From Candidatus Parcubacteria bacterium (GTDB lineage: Bacteria; Patescibacteriota; Minisyncoccia; Sungbacterales; SURF-37): a stretch of DNA of 64,000 nt. The translations under genes and the position numbers were made by a program. Within the stretch, counting starts at the first letter, position 1. Each line of letters starts with the position of its first letter. The DNA is taken from contig QZJO01000001.1 of the NCBI GenBank assembly GCA_003599755.1, forward strand, positions 5,222 to 69,221. Reading direction: 5' to 3'. Shown here in pieces: positions 1,998 to 6,551 of the stretch. The notes under the pieces were generated by a model, which had not been told where the DNA came from, made no database searches, and was given only the letters and a program-made list of their open reading frames with translations.

Positions 1998-3701
1998 ATG
2001 AATATCCCTTTCCTGAACCGGGAAATCGTCTCATTCCATGCCGCAGCCCTGGTGATCGGGGGTGCGGCTTTGGTGTCCAAACTCCTCGGCCTCATGCGCG
2101 ACCGGCTGTTGGCCGCGCGGTTTGGGGCGGGCGATGCGCTCGACGCGTACTATGCGGCGTTCCAGCTGCCCGATTTGCTCTATACGATCCTCCTGCTCGG
2201 CGCGGCCTCGGCCGCGGTGCTGCCCGCATACCTTGGCGCGCGCCGGGTCGATGCGAAAACGGCGGAACGGTTTCTCGGCAATCTTCTGACGCTCTTCGGC
2301 GCGACCGCGATTGCGGGCGCGCTAGTACTGTTTGCGCTCGCGCCCGAATTGCTGCGATTGTTAGTTCCGGGATTTGATCCCGAGAAGTTGGCAATGGCAG
2401 TCGGGCTTACGCGGATCATGGCTCTGAACGTCCTGCCGCTCGGTATCGCCGGAATACTCGCGAGCGTGCTGCAGGCCCATCAGCGGTTTATCGCGTTCGC
2501 GCTGCCGCCCATCGTGTATAACGTCGGCATTATCATCGGTATTTTGCTGTTTACGCCCGCACTCGGCGTCGCGGGGCTCGCCTGGGGCGTGGTGTTCGGC
2601 GGTGCGCTGCAGGTCATCGTCGTGCTGCCGGCGTTTTTCGGCCTCGGCATCCGCTACCGGCCGCGGTTCTCGCTAGCCGATCCGGCGCTTCGCCAGGTGC
2701 TCGCGACGTCCCTGCCGCGGGTGCTTGCGCTTTCGTTCGGGCAATTGACGCTGATCGCGCTCGCGGCGATCGCGTCGTTATTCGCATCGGGTTCCCTAGC
2801 GGCCTTCCGGCTCGGTGCGAATCTCATGTACGTGCCGGTCGGCCTCTTCGGCGTCAGTTACGCGCTTGCCGTATTTCCGAAGCTTTCGGATGCCTCGTTG
2901 GCGCGCGCCGGCGAGGCATTCACGAACCACTTCGTAGCCGGATTCCGGACGATTTTGTTCTGGACCTTACCGGCTGCGGCTCTCGCCATGGTGCTCCGCG
3001 CGCATATCGTGCGCGTCGTGCTCGGTAGCGGCGTATTCGACTGGACTGACACGCGCCTCGTTGCCGCGATTATTGCCGCGATCGCGATCGCCGTGGTGTC
3101 CGAAAGCATCGCGCCGCTGGTTCTGCGCGCGTTTTATGCGCTCGGGCGCACGCGCGAGCCGCTCATATGGAATTTGCTGTCGTCGTCGCTTGCGGTCGTC
3201 GTCGCGCTCCTGCTTTCCGCATGGTTTGTCCGGGCGCCGGAGGTGCTGGAACGTATTGCGGGCGTATTTCGCATCCGGGATATTCCGTCGCCGACCATTC
3301 TTGCGGTAGCGTTCGGGTTCGCGCTCGGCTCGGCAGTCAACGCGCTTATGCTCGTGTTGGTGCTGCGCCGCGCCGTACGACATGAATTCGGCATTCGCCT
3401 TCGGTTCGGCACCACGGATCTGGCCGGCATGCTTGGCGCGGCAGTACTCGCGGCCGTTGTGGCCTGGCTCGTGTTGCAGCCGTTCCCGTCGCTCGTGGCT
3501 ACCGATACGTTCTCCGGCATACTGCTGCAAGGCGTGGTCGCGGGCGTTGCCGGTATGGTCGTCTACGGCCTGATTCTCTTCGGCCAAAAGAATCCGGAAC
3601 TGTTCGGCTTTTGGGAAAGCGTCCGGCGGCGTCTCGTCACGCCGCGGCGCGCGCCGCAGGTATTCGAGACCGAAAAGCTCGACGGCGATCTGTCTCGTTA
3701 G
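1998..3701 (+). CDS. murJ: Lipid II flippase MurJ (MviN family)
   Basis: 567 aa, about 14 TM helices. The N-terminus 'FHAAALVIGGAALVSKLLGLMRDRLLAARFGAGDALDAYYAAFQLPDLLY' is the canonical MurJ signature. Confidence 0.85.
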   Translation: MNIPFLNREIVSFHAAALVIGGAALVSKLLGLMRDRLLAARFGAGDALDAYYAAFQLPDLLYTILLLGAASAAVLPAYLGARRVDAKTAERFLGNLLTLFGATAIAGALVLFALAPELLRLLVPGFDPEKLAMAVGLTRIMALNVLPLGIAGILASVLQAHQRFIAFALPPIVYNVGIIIGILLFTPALGVAGLAWGVVFGGALQVIVVLPAFFGLGIRYRPRFSLADPALRQVLATSLPRVLALSFGQLTLIALAAIASLFASGSLAAFRLGANLMYVPVGLFGVSYALAVFPKLSDASLARAGEAFTNHFVAGFRTILFWTLPAAALAMVLRAHIVRVVLGSGVFDWTDTRLVAAIIAAIAIAVVSESIAPLVLRAFYALGRTREPLIWNLLSSSLAVVVALLLSAWFVRAPEVLERIAGVFRIRDIPSPTILAVAFGFALGSAVNALMLVLVLRRAVRHEFGIRLRFGTTDLAGMLGAAVLAAVVAWLVLQPFPSLVATDTFSGILLQGVVAGVAGMVVYGLILFGQKNPELFGFWESVRRRLVTPRRAPQVFETEKLDGDLSR

Positions 3702-3867
3702 AAGCAGACCCCGGTAGTATACCGCGCAAGCTCGGTAACTACGGGGCGAGACGCGGTGTATAGATAGACCTTTATCATAGAGAGTCCCGCAGCCAAATCC
3801 ATGAGGGTTTGTGGTAACGGGATCGCGATTTCGATCGCCGCGCATAGCGATCGGGGCTTCTAACAAG
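3694..3867. repeat. Weak member of the GTTAGAAG inverted-repeat family (CTCGTTAGAAGC ... GCTTCTAACAAG), overlapping the murJ stop
   Basis: 12-nt inverted arms with 1 mismatch, about 150 bp apart. The interior contains GTAACGGGAT. Confidence 0.25.
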
Positions 3868-4760
3868 ATTTGCATCACTGACGGGCCGGGTCAATATTTT
3901 ATATTCATTGCACATTGATGTTTTACCCGTTACCATAAAAATATGGCTCGGGCTAGGTTTGATTTACCTATTGCTACCGTAAAAAGCCTCTACTGGGAAC
4001 GGGGTTTTTCTCTCGCAAAAATAGGCACCCGTTTTGGGTGCTCATGGAGTACTGTCGCGAATCGTTTGCGGGAGCACCATATTCCTTTGAAGAAAAAGAC
4101 GGAAATGAAAGTACGCTATCAAAAACGGTCATTCATCGGTTCGCTCGAGGAAATGGCGTATTTAGTTGGTTTCCGACTCGGAGATCTGAATGTCTACCGG
4201 CCTTCGATCAATTCAAAAATCGTAGTGGCGCGCTGCCACACTACGGTATCCATGCAAGCAAATCTTATTCGGTCGCTTTTTAAGAAATATGGCGGAGTGC
4301 GAGTTGTCCGTTCCAGTAACGGCATTACCATAAATTGCTTTCTGAATTTATCGTTCGGATTTTTGTTACCAAAAATTTATCCGCAATGGATTCAGCCGCA
4401 ATCAAAACCAATGGCTGCATTCACTGCCGGATATACCGATGCTGAGGGGTCGTTTGGTGTATATCAAGGAAGAGGGCGTTTCAAGCTCGATTCGTATGAT
4501 TATCAGATATTGCGAAATATATATCGTTTCTTGATTATCCAAGGAATTCATGCAAAGTTTTGGTGTATTGCGAAGCGAAATACAGCAAATATCAATGGCG
4601 GACGATGGCGCCACGATCTTTGGCGAATCAACGTCAATGAGGCGAAATCCTTGGTTAAATTTATTCGAATATTGTTGCCCCATTTAAGACATCATAACCG
4701 TATTCAACAAGCGCATGCAGTACTGAAAAATATCCAATCCAGATCCTCATTCACATGAAT
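3868..4760 (+). mobile_element. Low-GC (about 40%) insertion carrying a free-standing homing-endonuclease gene
   Basis: Abrupt GC drop relative to flanking genes (murJ, lepA about 63%). The segment ends exactly at the lepA start codon. Confidence 0.45.
3943..4758 (+). CDS. LAGLIDADG-family homing endonuclease-like protein (double-motif) with N-terminal HTH
   Basis: Two LAGLIDADG-like motifs: 'LVGFRLGDLNV' (about aa 64-74) and 'FTAGYTDAEGSF' (about aa 160-171, with the acidic catalytic residue). N-terminal HTH 'FSLAKIGTRFGCSWSTVANRLRE'. 271 aa. AT-rich codon usage unlike the host. Confidence 0.5.
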   Translation: MARARFDLPIATVKSLYWERGFSLAKIGTRFGCSWSTVANRLREHHIPLKKKTEMKVRYQKRSFIGSLEEMAYLVGFRLGDLNVYRPSINSKIVVARCHTTVSMQANLIRSLFKKYGGVRVVRSSNGITINCFLNLSFGFLLPKIYPQWIQPQSKPMAAFTAGYTDAEGSFGVYQGRGRFKLDSYDYQILRNIYRFLIIQGIHAKFWCIAKRNTANINGGRWRHDLWRINVNEAKSLVKFIRILLPHLRHHNRIQQAHAVLKNIQSRSSFT

Positions 4761-6551
4761 ATTCGGAACTTTGTAATTATCAGCCATGTTGATCACGGCA
4801 AGTCCACGCTTGCCGACCGGCTCTTGGAATTGACCGGCGCGGTGGAACGCCGGCGCATGCGCGAACAGTTTCTCGATCAGATGGAACTCGAGCGTGAGAA
4901 GGGGATCACGATCAAGATGCAGCCCGTTCGGATGCTCTGGCAGCCGCGCGGGGCAGAGCCGCCCTACATGCTGAATCTGATCGATACTCCCGGGCACGTG
5001 GATTTTTCGTACGAGGTATCGCGTGCGCTTGCCGCGGTGGAAGGCGCGATTCTCTTAGTGGACGCGACCCAGGGTATCCAGGCCCAAACCCTTGCGAATC
5101 TGGAGCTCGCGCGGCGCGAGGGGCTTGCCATCGTGCCGGCCGTCAATAAAATCGATCTTCCGGCCGCGCGGCCCGATGAGGTGGCCGAAGAAATCGCGTC
5201 GCTCCTCGAAATGCCGGCTGCCGACGTATTGCGTATATCCGGGAAAACCGGGGCGGGCGTGCCCGAACTCTTGGCCGCCATGGTGCGCGCCGTGCCGCCG
5301 CCGAGCGCCCGCGCCGACAAGCCCGCGCCCATGCCGCGCGCGCTGATCTTTGATTCGCACTTCGATCCCTATCGCGGCGTGATCGCGCATGTGCGCGTTA
5401 CGGACGGCACGTTTCGCCACGGGGCTAAGGTATGGATGGCGGCAACCCGTACGACCGTGGAGCTGATGGAGATCGGCACCTTCGCGCCCGAACTCAAGGC
5501 CGGGACGGAACTGGGCGCGGGCGAGATCGGCTATTTCGCGACCGGCCTCAAGGAAGCCGATGCGGTGCGCGTCGGAGATACGGTCCTCGGCGAAATGGGT
5601 GCCGACGCATGGCGGTTTCCGGGATACCGCGAGCCCGCCCCCATGGTATTCGCGAGCTTATATCCGGAAGATGCGGATATGTACGAGCGGCTGCTCGATG
5701 CGCTGAAGAAGATCCGCCTCAACGATGCCGCGTTGTCGTTCGAACCTGAATCGTCCGACGCGCTCGGCCGCGGGTTTCGCGCCGGATTTTTGGGCATGCT
5801 GCATATGGAAATCGTGGCCGAGCGGCTGCGGCGCGAATATGGCATCGCGCTCGTCACTACCATTCCTTCGGTGGCCTACCGTGTCATCCGGATCAACGGC
5901 GCGGAGGAATTCATCTACGCGGCAGGCAAGTTCCCGGATTTGCACGCGGTGCGCGAGGTGCGCGAGCCCTGGGTGCGCCTGGAGATCATCACCCCGCAAC
6001 GGTTCATGGGCAGCATTTTGGAATTAGTGCGCAAAGTCCGCGGCACGCCGGGCGACCAGCGGTACCTCGGCGGCGACCGGATGCATATCACGGCCGAAGC
6101 GCCGTTGCGCGACGTGCTCGTTGATTTTTTCGATGCGCTCAAAAGCGCGACCGAGGGATATGCGTCGCTTTCCTACGAGCCGATCGGGGAGCGGCTGGGC
6201 GACCTCGTACGCCTCGACATCGTCATCGCGGACGAGCGCGAGGATGCGCTCGCGCAAGTCGTGCCGTCCGAACGCGCGTATCAGGCGGGCCGCGCGATCG
6301 TGGCCAAGCTCAAGGAGCTCTTGCCCAAGGCCCTCTTCCCGATACCGCTTCAAGCAGCGGCCAATGGCCGCATCATCGCGCGCGAGACGATTCCGGCGCT
6401 GAAAAAAGACGTTACCGGGTATCTGTATGGCGGGGACCGCACGCGCAAGATGAAACTTTGGAAAAAGCAGCAGCGCGGGAAAAAGCGCCTGACCGAACGG
6501 GGGCGCGTAGAAATACCGCCCGACGTGTTTTTGCAAATTTTGAAGCGTTAA
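4755..6551 (+). CDS. lepA: Elongation factor 4 (LepA)
   Basis: 598 aa. 'NIRNFVIISHVDHGKSTLADRLL' G1 motif, 'LIDTPGHVDF', LepA C-terminal domain. Confidence 0.9.
   Translation: MNIRNFVIISHVDHGKSTLADRLLELTGAVERRRMREQFLDQMELEREKGITIKMQPVRMLWQPRGAEPPYMLNLIDTPGHVDFSYEVSRALAAVEGAILLVDATQGIQAQTLANLELARREGLAIVPAVNKIDLPAARPDEVAEEIASLLEMPAADVLRISGKTGAGVPELLAAMVRAVPPPSARADKPAPMPRALIFDSHFDPYRGVIAHVRVTDGTFRHGAKVWMAATRTTVELMEIGTFAPELKAGTELGAGEIGYFATGLKEADAVRVGDTVLGEMGADAWRFPGYREPAPMVFASLYPEDADMYERLLDALKKIRLNDAALSFEPESSDALGRGFRAGFLGMLHMEIVAERLRREYGIALVTTIPSVAYRVIRINGAEEFIYAAGKFPDLHAVREVREPWVRLEIITPQRFMGSILELVRKVRGTPGDQRYLGGDRMHITAEAPLRDVLVDFFDALKSATEGYASLSYEPIGERLGDLVRLDIVIADEREDALAQVVPSERAYQAGRAIVAKLKELLPKALFPIPLQAAANGRIIARETIPALKKDVTGYLYGGDRTRKMKLWKKQQRGKKRLTERGRVEIPPDVFLQILKR

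What the first reader, a model, noticed from the sequence alone, without database searches (positions are those of the whole stretch)
3868..4760. Free-standing LAGLIDADG-type homing-endonuclease gene in a low-GC insert overlapping the lepA start
A 271-aa ORF in an about 40% GC segment (flanks about 63%) has an N-terminal HTH and two LAGLIDADG-like motifs (LVGFRLGDLNV and TAGYTDAEGSF), with acidic residues at the catalytic positions. The double-motif arrangement is typical of monomeric homing endonucleases. It is not inside an intron or intein here. It sits between murJ and lepA, and its stop overlaps the lepA ATG (ATGA). This suggests a recent insertion. Intergenic, free-standing LAGLIDADG genes are uncommon in bacteria. 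The enzyme may home into a site at the 5' edge of lepA or have been domesticated.
Basis: partly seen in the sequence, partly recalled or inferred. Interest (0 to 1): 0.65.

Follow-up and report, generated by a model that had tools for sequence, protein, structure and literature searches.

The report
Homing endonuclease gene replacing lepA's start
A selfish DNA-cutting-enzyme gene has inserted into the first few codons of the essential translation gene lepA of a tiny groundwater bacterium, and it brought its own spare copy of those codons so the gene still works, a trick so far described mainly in fungal mitochondria.

Summary
ORF 3943..4758 (271 aa) is an intact two-domain LAGLIDADG enzyme with an N-terminal HTH. 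It lies in a 43% GC tract of a 62% GC Parcubacteria contig, and its stop overlaps the lepA ATG.

It is not simply intergenic. About 50 Patescibacteria species carry relatives, always abutting lepA. About 25 nt upstream of most copies lies a displaced lepA 5' fragment (..IRNFxIIAH, ending ..ATTGCACA). So the element sits inside ancestral lepA, at about codons 11-14 in the P-loop coding region, and carries a replacement lepA 5' end.

In the window, lepA codons 1-13 have the HEG's GC3 (0.39, against 0.78 for the rest of lepA). A decayed GC-rich native lepA relic lies at 3824-3852, and an AT-rich relic at about 3891-3918.

The closest relatives have the same gene order (TPR-MurJ-LepA-DivIC-MiaA) and lack the insert. 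So do 69 of 70 related metagenomic loci.

The restored lepA copies avoid the canonical IIAHIDHGK sequence (1/52 against 49/74 in empty sites), and the replaced 5' end tracks HEG phylogeny. I read this as target-site immunity.

Sister clades do the same at metG 5' ends and probably at uvrA, groEL and ppdK 3' ends.

The closest precedent is the fungal mitochondrial mORFs. Cleavage activity is untested.

The parts
1998..3701 (+). murJ, the upstream flanking host gene. In relatives without the insert it directly abuts lepA.
   Evidence: Pfam MurJ at 2.4e-71. murJ abuts lepA in most of the 69 empty loci and in L166, L168 and L169.
3801..3863 (+). Decayed native (GC-rich) lepA 5' relic. It is a 20-codon ORF, MRVCGNGIAISIAAHSDRGF*, and its best-supported core is 3824-3852.
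   Evidence: The core CGCGATTTCG--ATCGCCGCGCATAGCGATC aligns to lepA nt 13-43 of the closest relative L169. The score is 30, against a shuffle mean of 15.3, sd 1.9 and maximum 23. The score is 31 against L096, with 0 of 500 shuffles reaching it. nhmmer gives E=0.044.
3891..3918 (+). AT-rich lepA 5' relic, which forms the left arm of the element: TCAATATTTTATATTCATTGCACATTGA. The low-GC tract begins at about 3873-3890.
   Evidence: It sits in the same place, 15-39 nt before the HEG start, and has the same ..ATTGCACA end as the relics in 41 of 51 related loci. The local alignment to lepA 5' scores 23, reached by 1% of shuffles. nhmmer gives E=0.15.
3943..4758 (+). HTH-LAGLIDADG homing endonuclease gene, 271 aa and intact.
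   Evidence: D81 and E168 are invariant in a 28-sequence alignment.
3970..4074 (+). N-terminal three-helix HTH domain (aa 10-44).
   Evidence: AF2 helices at 10-19, 24-31 and 35-44. Weak matches to HTH_38, HTH_23 and Sigma70_r4. The domain is repeated 2-5 times in sister clades.
4162..4194 (+). LAGLIDADG motif 1, LVGFRLGDLNV (aa 74-84, catalytic D81). It heads domain 1 (aa 68-141).
   Evidence: The Foldseek alignments to two-domain enzymes span both domains.
4423..4455 (+). LAGLIDADG motif 2, TAGYTDAEGSF (aa 161-171, catalytic E168). It heads domain 2 (aa 156-244).
   Evidence: Pfam PF14528 on aa 156-241.
4755..4793 (+). Replacement lepA 5' end carried by the element. It covers codons 1-13 (MNIRNFVIISHVD) and is AT-rich, with A10S and I12V relative to the canonical VIIAHID.
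   Evidence: GC3 is 0.385 here, against 0.776 for codons 14-598 and 0.424 for the HEG. The binomial probability is 0.003. The closest relatives all read VIIAHIDHGKST.
4755..6551 (+). lepA (EF4), the full-length restored host gene. Native sequence resumes at about codon 14.
   Evidence: Pfam GTP_EFTU, LepA_C and others. A 100% identical protein is named 'elongation factor 4 [Candidatus Parcubacteria bacterium]'.

Best explanation
This is a site-specific selfish element built around a monomeric, two-domain LAGLIDADG homing endonuclease with an extra N-terminal HTH. Its home is the P-loop-coding stretch at the very start of lepA, about codons 8-15 (..IIAHIDHGK..).

Inferred mechanism. The enzyme cuts lepA alleles that lack the element near nt 33-40. 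Repair from an occupied allele copies in four things: a short left arm homologous to lepA nt <=33-39, a promoter-like AT-rich spacer, the endonuclease gene, and a substitute lepA 5' end (start codon plus about 11-13 codons) that joins in frame to the rest of lepA. The host therefore keeps a full-length EF4, now translated from a start that overlaps the endonuclease stop. The old 5' end is stranded upstream and decays. The substitute 5' end encodes the same motif with different codons and residues (here A10S and I12V), which should make the occupied allele uncuttable.

What is shown: the anatomy, the relics, the foreign composition, the sporadic and horizontally transferred distribution, the deviation of the restored copies from the canonical sequence, and co-inheritance of the 5' end with the endonuclease.

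What is inferred: cleavage activity, the exact cut site, and immunity.

In this window the presence of two relics, one native and GC-rich and one AT-rich, suggests either capture of a donor fragment by an illegitimate left-hand join or two successive invasions.
For: Enzyme:
- Pfam LAGLIDADG_3 scores above its cut-off.
- The AF2 model has pLDDT 91, and Foldseek matches it to PI-PfuI, I-AniI, I-DmoI and E-DreI.
- The catalytic D81 and E168 are invariant in 28 homologues.
- dN/dS is 0.10-0.18 in three close pairs.

Site specificity:
- Every one of the ~50 bacterial loci with >=37% HEG identity and readable downstream sequence has lepA starting within about 0-40 nt.
- The HEG stop overlaps the lepA start in 51 of 52 loci.

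Insertion inside lepA:
- 41 of 51 loci carry TTGCNCA within -70..+12 of the HEG start, against 0.007 expected.
- 10 of these keep an in-frame M..IRNFxIIAH.
- nhmmer matches consistently end at lepA nt about 31-39.

Window:
- GC3 is 0.385 for lepA codons 1-13, 0.776 for the rest of lepA and 0.424 for the HEG.
- A native relic lies at 3824-3852, about 7.7 sd above shuffles, and an AT-rich relic lies at about 3891-3918.

Mobility:
- The syntenic closest relatives L166/L167, L168 and L169 lack the insert.
- 69 of 70 related metagenomic lepA loci are empty, most with murJ abutting lepA.
- HEG GC is below both flanks in essentially all loci.
- Some pairs have HEG identity above LepA identity: L013-L030 at 80 against 64, L048-L047 at 72 against 54, and L038-L043 at 70 against 58.

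Immunity and co-transfer:
- Canonical IIAHIDHGK occurs in 1 of 52 occupied copies against 49 of 74 empty sites.
- Matched contrasts agree: window, L009, L012, L017 and L049 differ from their nearest empty sites.
- In a partial Mantel test, lepA nt 7-36 tracks HEG distance given the LepA body (r=0.36, 0 of 2000 permutations) and not the reverse (r=-0.06).

Generality:
- Sister clades sit at the metG 5' end with metG relics.
- Others sit at the uvrA 3' end (with a relic, E=3e-4) and at groEL and ppdK 3' ends.
Against: - No biochemical data exist. The endonuclease could be inactive in this genome.
- The occupied and empty sets were sampled differently: GTDB species chosen by HEG against metagenome contigs chosen by similarity to the window's LepA. 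The 1/52 against 49/74 contrast is therefore confounded by phylogeny, and only about 6 independent matched contrasts exist.
- The nucleotide-level excess of changes in lepA nt 7-39 over nt 40-90 is modest: ratio 1.23 against 1.02, p=0.03, and not significant for close pairs.
- HEG and LepA distances correlate overall (Mantel r=0.66), so much of the inheritance is vertical.
- Purifying selection on the ORF is also what a host-useful protein would show.
- The AT-rich relic in the window is short and weak on its own (E=0.15). It counts only because it matches the position and sequence of relics in other loci.
- L136 has the non-canonical CVISH motif without any HEG.
- No degenerate HEG copies were found in empty sites, so the decay phase of a classic homing cycle is not documented.
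Confidence: 0.72

Rival explanations
1. This is a fixed, no-longer-mobile remnant. The element invaded as described, but in this lineage the endonuclease is now inactive or has no targets left. It persists only because disrupting it would disturb lepA expression, since the ORFs overlap and lepA translation is probably coupled.
For: The HEG stop overlaps the lepA start in 51 of 52 loci, so deletions or frameshifts could be selected against for host reasons. Whole LepA clades contain only HEG+ members in my sample (the AILAH and SIMAH groups). Mantel r=0.66 indicates long vertical persistence.
Against: The ORF is intact, and both catalytic acids and 28 other columns are invariant. dN/dS of 0.1-0.2 applies to the whole protein, not just the overlapping 3' end. 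There are clear horizontal-transfer outliers. The strong GC3 deficit in a 62% GC genome argues for a fairly recent arrival.
Confidence: 0.15
2. This is a domesticated LAGLIDADG/HTH DNA-binding protein, for example a regulator of lepA or a partner of EF4, in the way WhiA is a domesticated LAGLIDADG transcription factor. It would be inherited vertically with lepA as an operon.
For: Linkage to lepA is absolute across many Patescibacteria classes. The ORF is under purifying selection. An HTH domain is present.
Against: The gene is absent from the three closest syntenic relatives and from 69 of 70 related loci. Its GC is always lower than the host's. Catalytic residues are retained, unlike in WhiA. 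Displaced lepA relics and a foreign lepA 5' end are present. Sister clades attach in the same way to unrelated genes: metG, uvrA, groEL and ppdK.
Confidence: 0.06
3. The endonuclease is intron- or intein-encoded. The upstream relic would be lepA exon 1, and the HEG would lie in a group I intron, or in an intein spliced from LepA.
For: LAGLIDADG genes in Patescibacteria are usually intron-borne in rRNA and tRNA genes (PMC11270868, PMC13011429). The upstream relic looks like an exon 1 in about 10 loci.
Against: No Rfam family matches 3500-5000 even at E<=1, and none matches the whole window at gathering score. The downstream lepA copy has its own start codon and a conserved IRNF motif in 50 of 52 loci, which an exon 2 would not need. 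Most relics carry stops, deletions or frameshifts. The HEG is in a different frame from lepA, and no Hint/intein-splicing family appeared among its Pfam matches.
Confidence: 0.02
4. This is an assembly artefact: a chimeric join of AT-rich foreign reads into a GC-rich contig.
For: There is an abrupt GC change.
Against: The same junctions occur on a separately recorded 13.8 kb JGI contig (L001), and the identical LepA protein is also held in an NCBI record from a 73 kb contig. The same architecture recurs in about 50 independent genomes. The reading frames are continuous across both boundaries.
Confidence: 0.01

Closest known systems
Fungal mitochondrial mobile ORF elements (mORFs) with terminal gene-segment replacement. 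Examples are Allomyces macrogynus atp6 and Glomus atp6, atp9, cox2 and nad3 (PMC3630166, which cites Paquin et al. 1994). From my own knowledge, and not checked here, the LAGLIDADG genes inserted in Ophiostoma rps3 are similar.
   Same: An endonuclease ORF (LAGLIDADG or GIY-YIG) is inserted inside a protein-coding gene without an intron or intein. The element carries a foreign copy of the displaced gene end, which joins in frame. The native end is left behind as a duplicate pseudogene. The carried end is more divergent than the native one and was acquired horizontally.
   Different: Here the host is a bacterium (Patescibacteria), with sister clades in DPANN archaea, and not a mitochondrion. 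The 5' end is replaced rather than the 3' end, so the element must also supply a start codon and expression signals. The endonuclease ORF is not fused to the host gene but overlaps its new start. The enzyme has an added N-terminal HTH.
Free-standing phage homing endonucleases and 'intronless homing': T4 SegB, SegG and MobE, and F-CphI (PMC2330249, PMC2790892, PMC6083498).
   Same: These are stand-alone endonuclease genes next to their target. They spread by double-strand-break repair with co-conversion of flanking markers. The carrier genome is protected by sequence differences at the target.
   Different: The phage enzymes are GIY-YIG, HNH or EndoVII-type and sit between genes of phage genomes. 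They do not insert into a coding sequence and rebuild it. No relative of this family was found in IMG/VR.
Intron-encoded LAGLIDADG endonucleases in the rRNA and tRNA genes of Patescibacteria (PMC11270868, PMC13011429).
   Same: They share the host phylum and the enzyme superfamily. They also show sporadic, partly horizontal distribution at fixed sites in highly conserved genes.
   Different: Those sit in group I or II introns of RNA genes and are mostly single-domain LAGLIDADG_1 or LAGLIDADG_2 proteins. This one is a double-domain LAGLIDADG_3-type protein with an HTH, in a protein-coding gene, with no ribozyme.
Archaeal and intein LAGLIDADG enzymes: PI-PfuI, I-DmoI and the TliVMA intein endonuclease domain.
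   Same: These are the best structural matches, with Foldseek E of 3e-8 to 1e-6 and TM normalised to the target of up to 0.68 for I-DmoI. The Pfam LAGLIDADG_3 family is shared.
   Different: Sequence identity is only 11-18%. There is no Hint splicing domain. The context is free-standing.
WhiA (DUF199), a domesticated LAGLIDADG plus HTH transcription factor.
   Same: It combines a two-domain LAGLIDADG fold with an HTH. Structure 3hyj is among the Foldseek hits (rank 44).
   Different: In WhiA the HTH is C-terminal, the catalytic acids are lost, and the gene is conserved throughout its lineages. Here the HTH is N-terminal, the acids are invariant, and the gene is sporadic.

Membership tests
LAGLIDADG homing endonuclease, monomeric double-motif type | Two alpha-beta-beta-alpha-beta-beta-alpha domains, each headed by a LAGLIDADG helix | tested here: met
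   AF2 secondary structure: H68-81, E83-85, E94-100, H103-113, E118-124, E127-134, H136-141, then H156-168, E169-174, E177-184, H187-199, E205-210, E226-231, H234-244. Foldseek matches to I-AniI, E-DreI and I-DmoI span both domains. Pfam PF14528 scores above its cut-off for domain 2 only.
LAGLIDADG homing endonuclease, monomeric double-motif type | A conserved acidic residue at the end of each LAGLIDADG motif (the metal-binding catalytic pair) | tested here: met
   D81 (..RLGD) and E168 (..TDAE) are invariant in 28 homologues with 54% mean column identity.
LAGLIDADG homing endonuclease, monomeric double-motif type | Site-specific cleavage of a long (about 14-40 bp) target leaving 4-nt 3' overhangs | not testable with these tools
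   This needs purified protein. The predicted target is lepA nt about 22-49.
LAGLIDADG homing endonuclease, monomeric double-motif type | The gene resides at a fixed site in a conserved host gene, with sporadic, partly horizontal distribution | tested here: met
   always at lepA; empty sites; HGT outliers.
mORF-type element with terminal gene-segment replacement | The endonuclease ORF is inserted within a protein-coding gene without an intron or intein | tested here: met
   Relics end at lepA nt about 31-39. No Rfam hit was found. The HEG is a separate ORF.
mORF-type element with terminal gene-segment replacement | The gene end is duplicated: one copy is joined in frame and functional, the other is displaced and decaying | tested here: met
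   The functional copy has a start codon and IRNF in 50 of 52 loci. Relics are found in 41 of 51 loci, most of them broken. The window's relics lie at 3824-3852 and 3891-3918.
mORF-type element with terminal gene-segment replacement | The in-frame copy is of foreign origin and travels with the endonuclease | tested here: met
   GC3 is 0.385 against 0.776. The partial Mantel r is 0.36, with 0 of 2000 permutations reaching it. L129 against L136 shows 11 differences in nt 7-39 and 4 in nt 40-90. The pooled nucleotide test is only modest (p=0.03).
mORF-type element with terminal gene-segment replacement | Mitochondrial host and 3'-end (C-terminal) replacement, as in all described cases | tested here: not met
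   The host is a bacterial Parcubacteria contig and the 5' end is replaced. It therefore works like an mORF but is a new variant. Sister clades at uvrA, groEL and ppdK do sit at 3' ends.
Intron-encoded homing endonuclease | Embedded in a group I or II ribozyme | tested here: not met
   No Rfam family matches at E<=1 in 3500-5000 or at gathering score in the window.
Intein-encoded homing endonuclease | In frame within the host protein and flanked by Hint splicing blocks | tested here: not met
   It is a separate ORF in a different frame from lepA. No Hint/intein-splicing family appeared among its Pfam matches at E<=10.
WhiA-like domesticated LAGLIDADG regulator | Loss of catalytic acids and universal vertical conservation in a lineage | tested here: not met
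   The acids are invariant. The gene is absent from the closest relatives.

The most novel reading that the evidence does not exclude
Patescibacteria and DPANN archaea host a previously unrecognised class of cellular homing elements. These are HTH-LAGLIDADG genes that target the nucleotide-binding-motif codons lying within a few dozen bases of the end of essential genes: the lepA P-loop, the metG HIGH motif, and the C-terminal motifs of uvrA, groEL and ppdK. They avoid the need for an intron or intein by carrying a cleavage-resistant replacement of that gene end. Repeated invasions would leave stacked relics and would drive recurrent, convergent substitutions such as A10S in the G1 motif of EF4. 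Selfish DNA would thus shape the sequence of a universally conserved active-site motif.
Probability: 0.55. Interest if true: 0.75.

Novelty: new variant of a known kind. Interest (0 to 1): 0.62.

Why it matters
Homing endonucleases are thought to need an intron or intein to live inside essential genes, or else to stay between genes. This locus and its relatives indicate a third way in cellular prokaryotes: insert near a gene's end and bring a spare, cut-proof copy of that end.

That strategy was known only from a handful of fungal mitochondrial genes, and there only for 3' ends.

The model also explains why these LAGLIDADG genes in ultra-small bacteria and archaea are glued to lepA or metG, and why annotators truncate or mis-start them.

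It predicts a concrete 20-30 bp recognition site in the P-loop codons of EF4 that can be tested in a day with synthetic DNA.

It further suggests that selfish elements drive convergent amino-acid changes in a conserved GTPase motif, and it offers a set of natural meganucleases aimed at very conserved sequences.

Tried and rejected
- Intron: Rfam at gathering score on the whole window and at E<=1 on 3500-5000 gave nothing.
- tRNA or tmRNA attachment site: none in the window.
- Intein: the HEG is a separate ORF in a different frame from lepA, and no Hint/intein-splicing family appeared among its Pfam matches.
- Phage vector: a pattern scan of IMG/VR with the family alignment found no relative.
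- Degenerate HEG remnants in empty murJ-lepA spacers: a six-frame hmmsearch found only the one intact copy, in L129. This includes the loci with 700-1150 nt spacers.
- Second copy in the window: none.
- Promoter and terminator consensus scan of 3600-4900: no more sites than in shuffles, so it was uninformative. Many relatives show TGnTATAAT-like sequence between relic and start codon by eye, but I did not test this.
- A possible third relic at 3866-3885: not detected by nhmmer, so dropped.
- Pooled nucleotide test of excess divergence in lepA nt 7-39 against nt 40-90: only modest, so it is treated as weak support.
- NCBIfam gave only sub-threshold HTH hits. A sequence search of PDB gave only marginal LAGLIDADG hits at E=0.017.
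- Literature: five searches aimed at prior reports (LAGLIDADG with lepA; with free-standing and Patescibacteria; homing endonuclease with CPR, DPANN and free-standing; LAGLIDADG with methionyl-tRNA synthetase and archaea; N-terminal duplication, gene hybrid and intronless homing) found no description of this arrangement in bacteria or archaea. The library excludes most subscription journals, so absence is not proof.
Full report
**1. The observation**

The window holds an ATG-initiated ORF at 3943..4758 (+) of 271 aa. Its TGA shares the tetranucleotide ATGA with the start of the next gene at 4755. Pfam identifies the neighbours as MurJ (1998..3701) and LepA/EF4 (4755..6551).

GC falls from 0.60-0.69 in the flanks to 0.38-0.47 across about 3750-4800. 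The ORF itself is 43.2% GC, against 62% in the 3 kb on either side.

The protein matches Pfam LAGLIDADG_3 above the gathering score (26.7 against 22.5 bits, aa 156-241). Several HTH models match aa 15-47 weakly. An AlphaFold model built on 28 homologues has mean pLDDT 91 and shows a three-helix N-terminal domain followed by two alpha-beta-beta-alpha-beta-beta-alpha domains. Foldseek against the PDB returns PI-PfuI, E-DreI, I-AniI, I-DmoI, I-OnuI variants and other LAGLIDADG enzymes.

Their terminal acids, D81 and E168, are invariant in the family alignment. The gene caller behind the public record truncated the protein to 230 aa (P0001). Homologues align from residue 1, so 3943 is the real start.

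**2. A large family that is always attached to lepA**

The protein has more than 300 full-length relatives of about 275 aa. Nearly all come from Patescibacteria (CPR) metagenome bins. A profile search of 1.8 billion cluster representatives finds 400 clusters at E<=1e-30.

A scan of one genome per GTDB species returned 80 loci. In every bacterial locus where the endonuclease is at least 37% identical to the window's and downstream sequence is available, lepA begins within about 0-40 nt of the end of the match. That covers about 50 species of Uhr-, Berkel-, Nomura-, Falkow-, Nealson-, Taylor-, Wolfe-, Portnoy-, Kerfeld- and Moranbacteria, Paceibacterota and others. The endonuclease stop codon lies inside or just before the first lepA codons in 51 of 52 loci.

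Upstream neighbours vary. murJ is the neighbour in many loci, and other genes in, for example, L003.

**3. It is sporadic, foreign and partly horizontally transferred**

The window's LepA is identical to an NCBI entry named 'elongation factor 4 [Candidatus Parcubacteria bacterium]'. Its nearest named relatives are Sungbacteria.

The three closest LepA relatives I could place on contigs are L169 (71% identity), L166/L167 (68%) and L168 (66%). They have the window's gene order, TPR protein, MurJ, LepA, small ORF, DivIC, MiaA, but no endonuclease. In them murJ and lepA are 28-130 nt apart.

Of the 80 metagenomic loci most similar to the window's LepA, 70 have enough upstream sequence to judge. 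Of those, 69 are empty, most with murJ abutting lepA, and one (L129) is occupied. A six-frame profile search of the empty spacers found no decayed endonuclease.

In essentially every occupied locus the endonuclease is poorer in GC than both flanks, often by 10-20 points.

Endonuclease and LepA distances correlate (Mantel r=0.66), so there is a good deal of vertical descent. Even so, several pairs have endonucleases more similar than their LepAs: L013-L030 at 80% against 64%, L048-L047 at 72% against 54%, and L038-L043 at 70% against 58%. In clearly vertical pairs the endonuclease is always the more diverged of the two. That pattern indicates transfer between lineages into the same site.

The ORF is under purifying selection in the three pairs close enough to measure (dN/dS 0.10, 0.13 and 0.18).

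**4. The element sits inside lepA and brings a new lepA start**

I printed the 100 nt upstream of each endonuclease start, and this changed the picture. About 15-39 nt before the start codon, nearly every locus has ..ATTATTGCACA. In many loci this is the end of a recognisable lepA 5' fragment, for example ATGGAAATCTCAAAAATTAGAAATTTTGCCATTATTGCACAT (MEISKIRNFAIIAH) in L007.

- TTGCNCA occurs within -70..+12 of the start in 41 of 51 loci, against 0.007 expected from the adjacent 230 nt.
- Ten relics keep an in-frame M..IRNFxIIAH. The rest are shortened or broken.
- A nucleotide profile built from empty-site lepA 5' ends matches these relics at a constant position. The matches end at profile positions corresponding to lepA nt about 31-39.

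So the ancestral lepA was interrupted at about codons 11-14, in the sequence encoding the G1/P-loop motif (..IIAH|IDHGKST..). Downstream of the endonuclease, a second complete lepA 5' end continues in frame into the rest of the gene. It has a start codon, and IRNF is conserved in 50 of 52 loci.

**5. The same anatomy in the window**

Third-position GC is 0.765 in murJ, 0.424 in the endonuclease, 0.385 in lepA codons 1-13 and 0.776 in lepA codons 14-598. Five or fewer GC-ending codons out of 13 has a binomial probability of 0.003. The foreign tract therefore runs to about 4793 and includes the lepA start.

Upstream there are two relics.

- The first is AT-rich, at about 3891-3918 (TCAATATTTTATATTCATTGCACATTGA). 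It occupies the standard position and carries the standard ..ATTGCACA end.
- The second is GC-rich, at 3824-3852 (CGCGATTTCG--ATCGCCGCGCATAGCGATC), inside a 20-codon ORF that starts at 3801. It aligns to lepA nt 13-43 of the closest relative L169 with score 30, against 15.3 +/- 1.9 in shuffles with a maximum of 23. It also aligns to L096, with 0 of 500 shuffles reaching the score.

I read the GC-rich relic as the host's own displaced lepA start and the AT-rich one as the left arm that came with the element. Two relics could mean an illegitimate left-hand join during an inter-lineage transfer, or two successive invasions. I cannot distinguish these.

**6. The restored copies avoid the canonical target**

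Residues 8-16 read IIAHIDHGK in 49 of 74 empty-site LepAs but in only 1 of 52 occupied ones (Fisher 5e-15, not corrected for phylogeny). The occupied copies carry I9L/M/V, A10S, I12V or H14A.

The relics in the same genomes encode the canonical I-I-A-H. They differ from their own functional copy at a mean of 4.4 of 12 nt.

Matched by the rest of LepA, the contrasts repeat independently:
- window VIISH against VIIAH in L086, L087 and L103
- L009 VVISH against VIIAH
- L012 CVISH and L017 VIVAH against CIIAH
- L049 CIISH against CIIAH
- L033 keeps CIIAH but has H14A.

Among occupied loci, distances in lepA nt 7-36 follow endonuclease distances once the LepA body is controlled for (partial r=0.36, 0 of 2000 permutations). 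They do not follow the LepA body once the endonuclease is controlled for (r=-0.06). So the new 5' end travels with the endonuclease.

A pooled nucleotide comparison of nt 7-39 against nt 40-90 in nearest occupied/empty pairs is only modestly skewed (ratio 1.23 against 1.02, p=0.03). The one very close pair, L129 and L136 with 95% LepA identity, shows 11 against 4 differences.

I interpret the variant codons as target-site immunity carried by the element. That is an inference.

**7. Mechanism proposed**

The enzyme recognises about 20-30 bp around lepA nt 22-49, which is the left half ..ATTATTGCNCA and the right half TATTGAYCAYGGNAAR... It cuts alleles that lack the element. Repair from an occupied allele copies in the left arm, an AT-rich spacer, the endonuclease gene and the resistant replacement 5' end.

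By eye, many relatives have TGnTATAAT-like sequence in that spacer. I did not test this, and the consensus scan in the window was uninformative.

lepA remains full length and is probably translated by coupling to the overlapping endonuclease ORF. Conservation of the first 75 nt of lepA across phyla supplies right-hand homology even between distant hosts. Left-hand homology is only the about 30 nt of lepA before the cut, which may explain messy left junctions such as the window's.

**8. Sister clades use the same design on other genes**

More distant homologues (30-39% identity) have two or three N-terminal HTH repeats. They occur in DPANN archaea and some CPR bacteria, directly upstream of metG (Pfam confirmation). 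Displaced metG 5' fragments ending just before the HIGH motif lie upstream in L053, L057, L063, L065 and L070. In five archaeal loci the endonuclease ORF runs without a stop into MetRS.

Other members lie tail-to-tail against the 3' ends of other genes. At uvrA (L056) a displaced UvrA C-terminal fragment lies on the far side of the endonuclease, E=3e-4. The others are at groEL (L069, L071, L073, L081, L082, L084) and ppdK (L080). For groEL and ppdK I did not find convincing relics, so those cases rest on position only.

**9. Comparison with what is known**

The mechanism most closely resembles the mobile ORF elements of fungal mitochondria. There, a LAGLIDADG or GIY-YIG ORF inserted in atp6, atp9, cox2 or nad3 carries a foreign C-terminal segment that replaces the native one, and the native segment remains downstream as a duplicate (PMC3630166, which cites the Allomyces atp6 case). 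The differences are the host (bacteria and archaea), the gene end (5' here), the need to supply a start codon, and the HTH extension.

It also shares immunity by polymorphism and co-conversion with the free-standing phage endonucleases (PMC2330249, PMC2790892). It differs from them in enzyme family, and in inserting into and rebuilding a coding sequence.

Published work on LAGLIDADG genes in Patescibacteria concerns introns in rRNA and tRNA genes (PMC11270868, PMC13011429). Five full-text searches aimed at prior reports found no report of this arrangement in bacteria or archaea. The library is incomplete, so this is not proof of novelty.

**10. Verdict**

The gene is a new member of a large, unnamed family of HTH-LAGLIDADG endonucleases. 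The way the element lives in lepA is a new variant of a known kind of mobile element.

The main uncertainties are the absence of any activity data, the phylogenetic confounding of the occupied/empty comparison, and the weak stand-alone statistics of the short AT-rich relic in this particular window.

Noticed in passing
L103:5001-7280 (+); also L108, and proteins P0129, P0136, P0144, P0162, P0173, P0184, P0185, P0195, P0199: Some Sungbacteria-like LepA proteins are 745-811 aa long. They carry an in-frame PD-(D/E)XK nuclease domain (Pfam PDDEXK_3, aa 85-198 in L103) inside the GTPase domain, after canonical residue about 69. The lepA genes of L016, L023 and L024 also have 60-130 extra residues at that point. 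This may be a second, different mobile insertion in lepA.
   Followed up: partly
L058:2738-5347, L060:5956-9036, L064:588-3212, L066:1-2730, L067:1648-4665: In five DPANN (Pacearchaeota, Woesearchaeota, Nanoarchaeota) loci the HTH-LAGLIDADG reading frame continues without a stop codon into methionyl-tRNA synthetase. This predicts either a fusion protein or internal initiation.
   Followed up: partly
L136:4900-5050 against L129:3400-4340: L136 has no endonuclease, although its LepA is 95% identical to that of the occupied L129. It shares the non-canonical CVISH motif and the upstream terminator hairpin. Its lepA nt 7-39 differ from L129 at 11 positions, against 4 in nt 40-90. This is either a loss of the element or a naturally resistant allele.
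   Followed up: partly
L063:1479-3338: The displaced metG 5' relic lies 1.8 kb upstream of the endonuclease ORF instead of directly before it. Something else, possibly a second insertion, sits between them.
   Followed up: no
L056:5509-5583 (-), and L069, L071, L073, L081, L082, L084, L080: Further clades of the same protein family lie tail-to-tail against the 3' ends of uvrA, groEL and ppdK. Only the uvrA case shows a clear displaced C-terminal fragment.
   Followed up: partly
window 3943-4065; protein P0001: The public gene call for this ORF starts at an internal TTG and gives 230 aa, which cuts off the HTH domain. Homologues show that the 271-aa ATG start is correct.
   Followed up: yes
proteins P0330 (821 aa) and P0372 (701 aa); family-wide: The number of N-terminal HTH repeats varies from 1 to 5 among family members. 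Two database proteins consist of 12-14 HTH-like repeats.
   Followed up: no
L002:67-849 and 3374-3799: In the locus with the closest endonuclease relative (62% identity), two genes of the '23S rRNA intervening sequence protein' family (PF05635) flank the TPR gene upstream of murJ.
   Followed up: no
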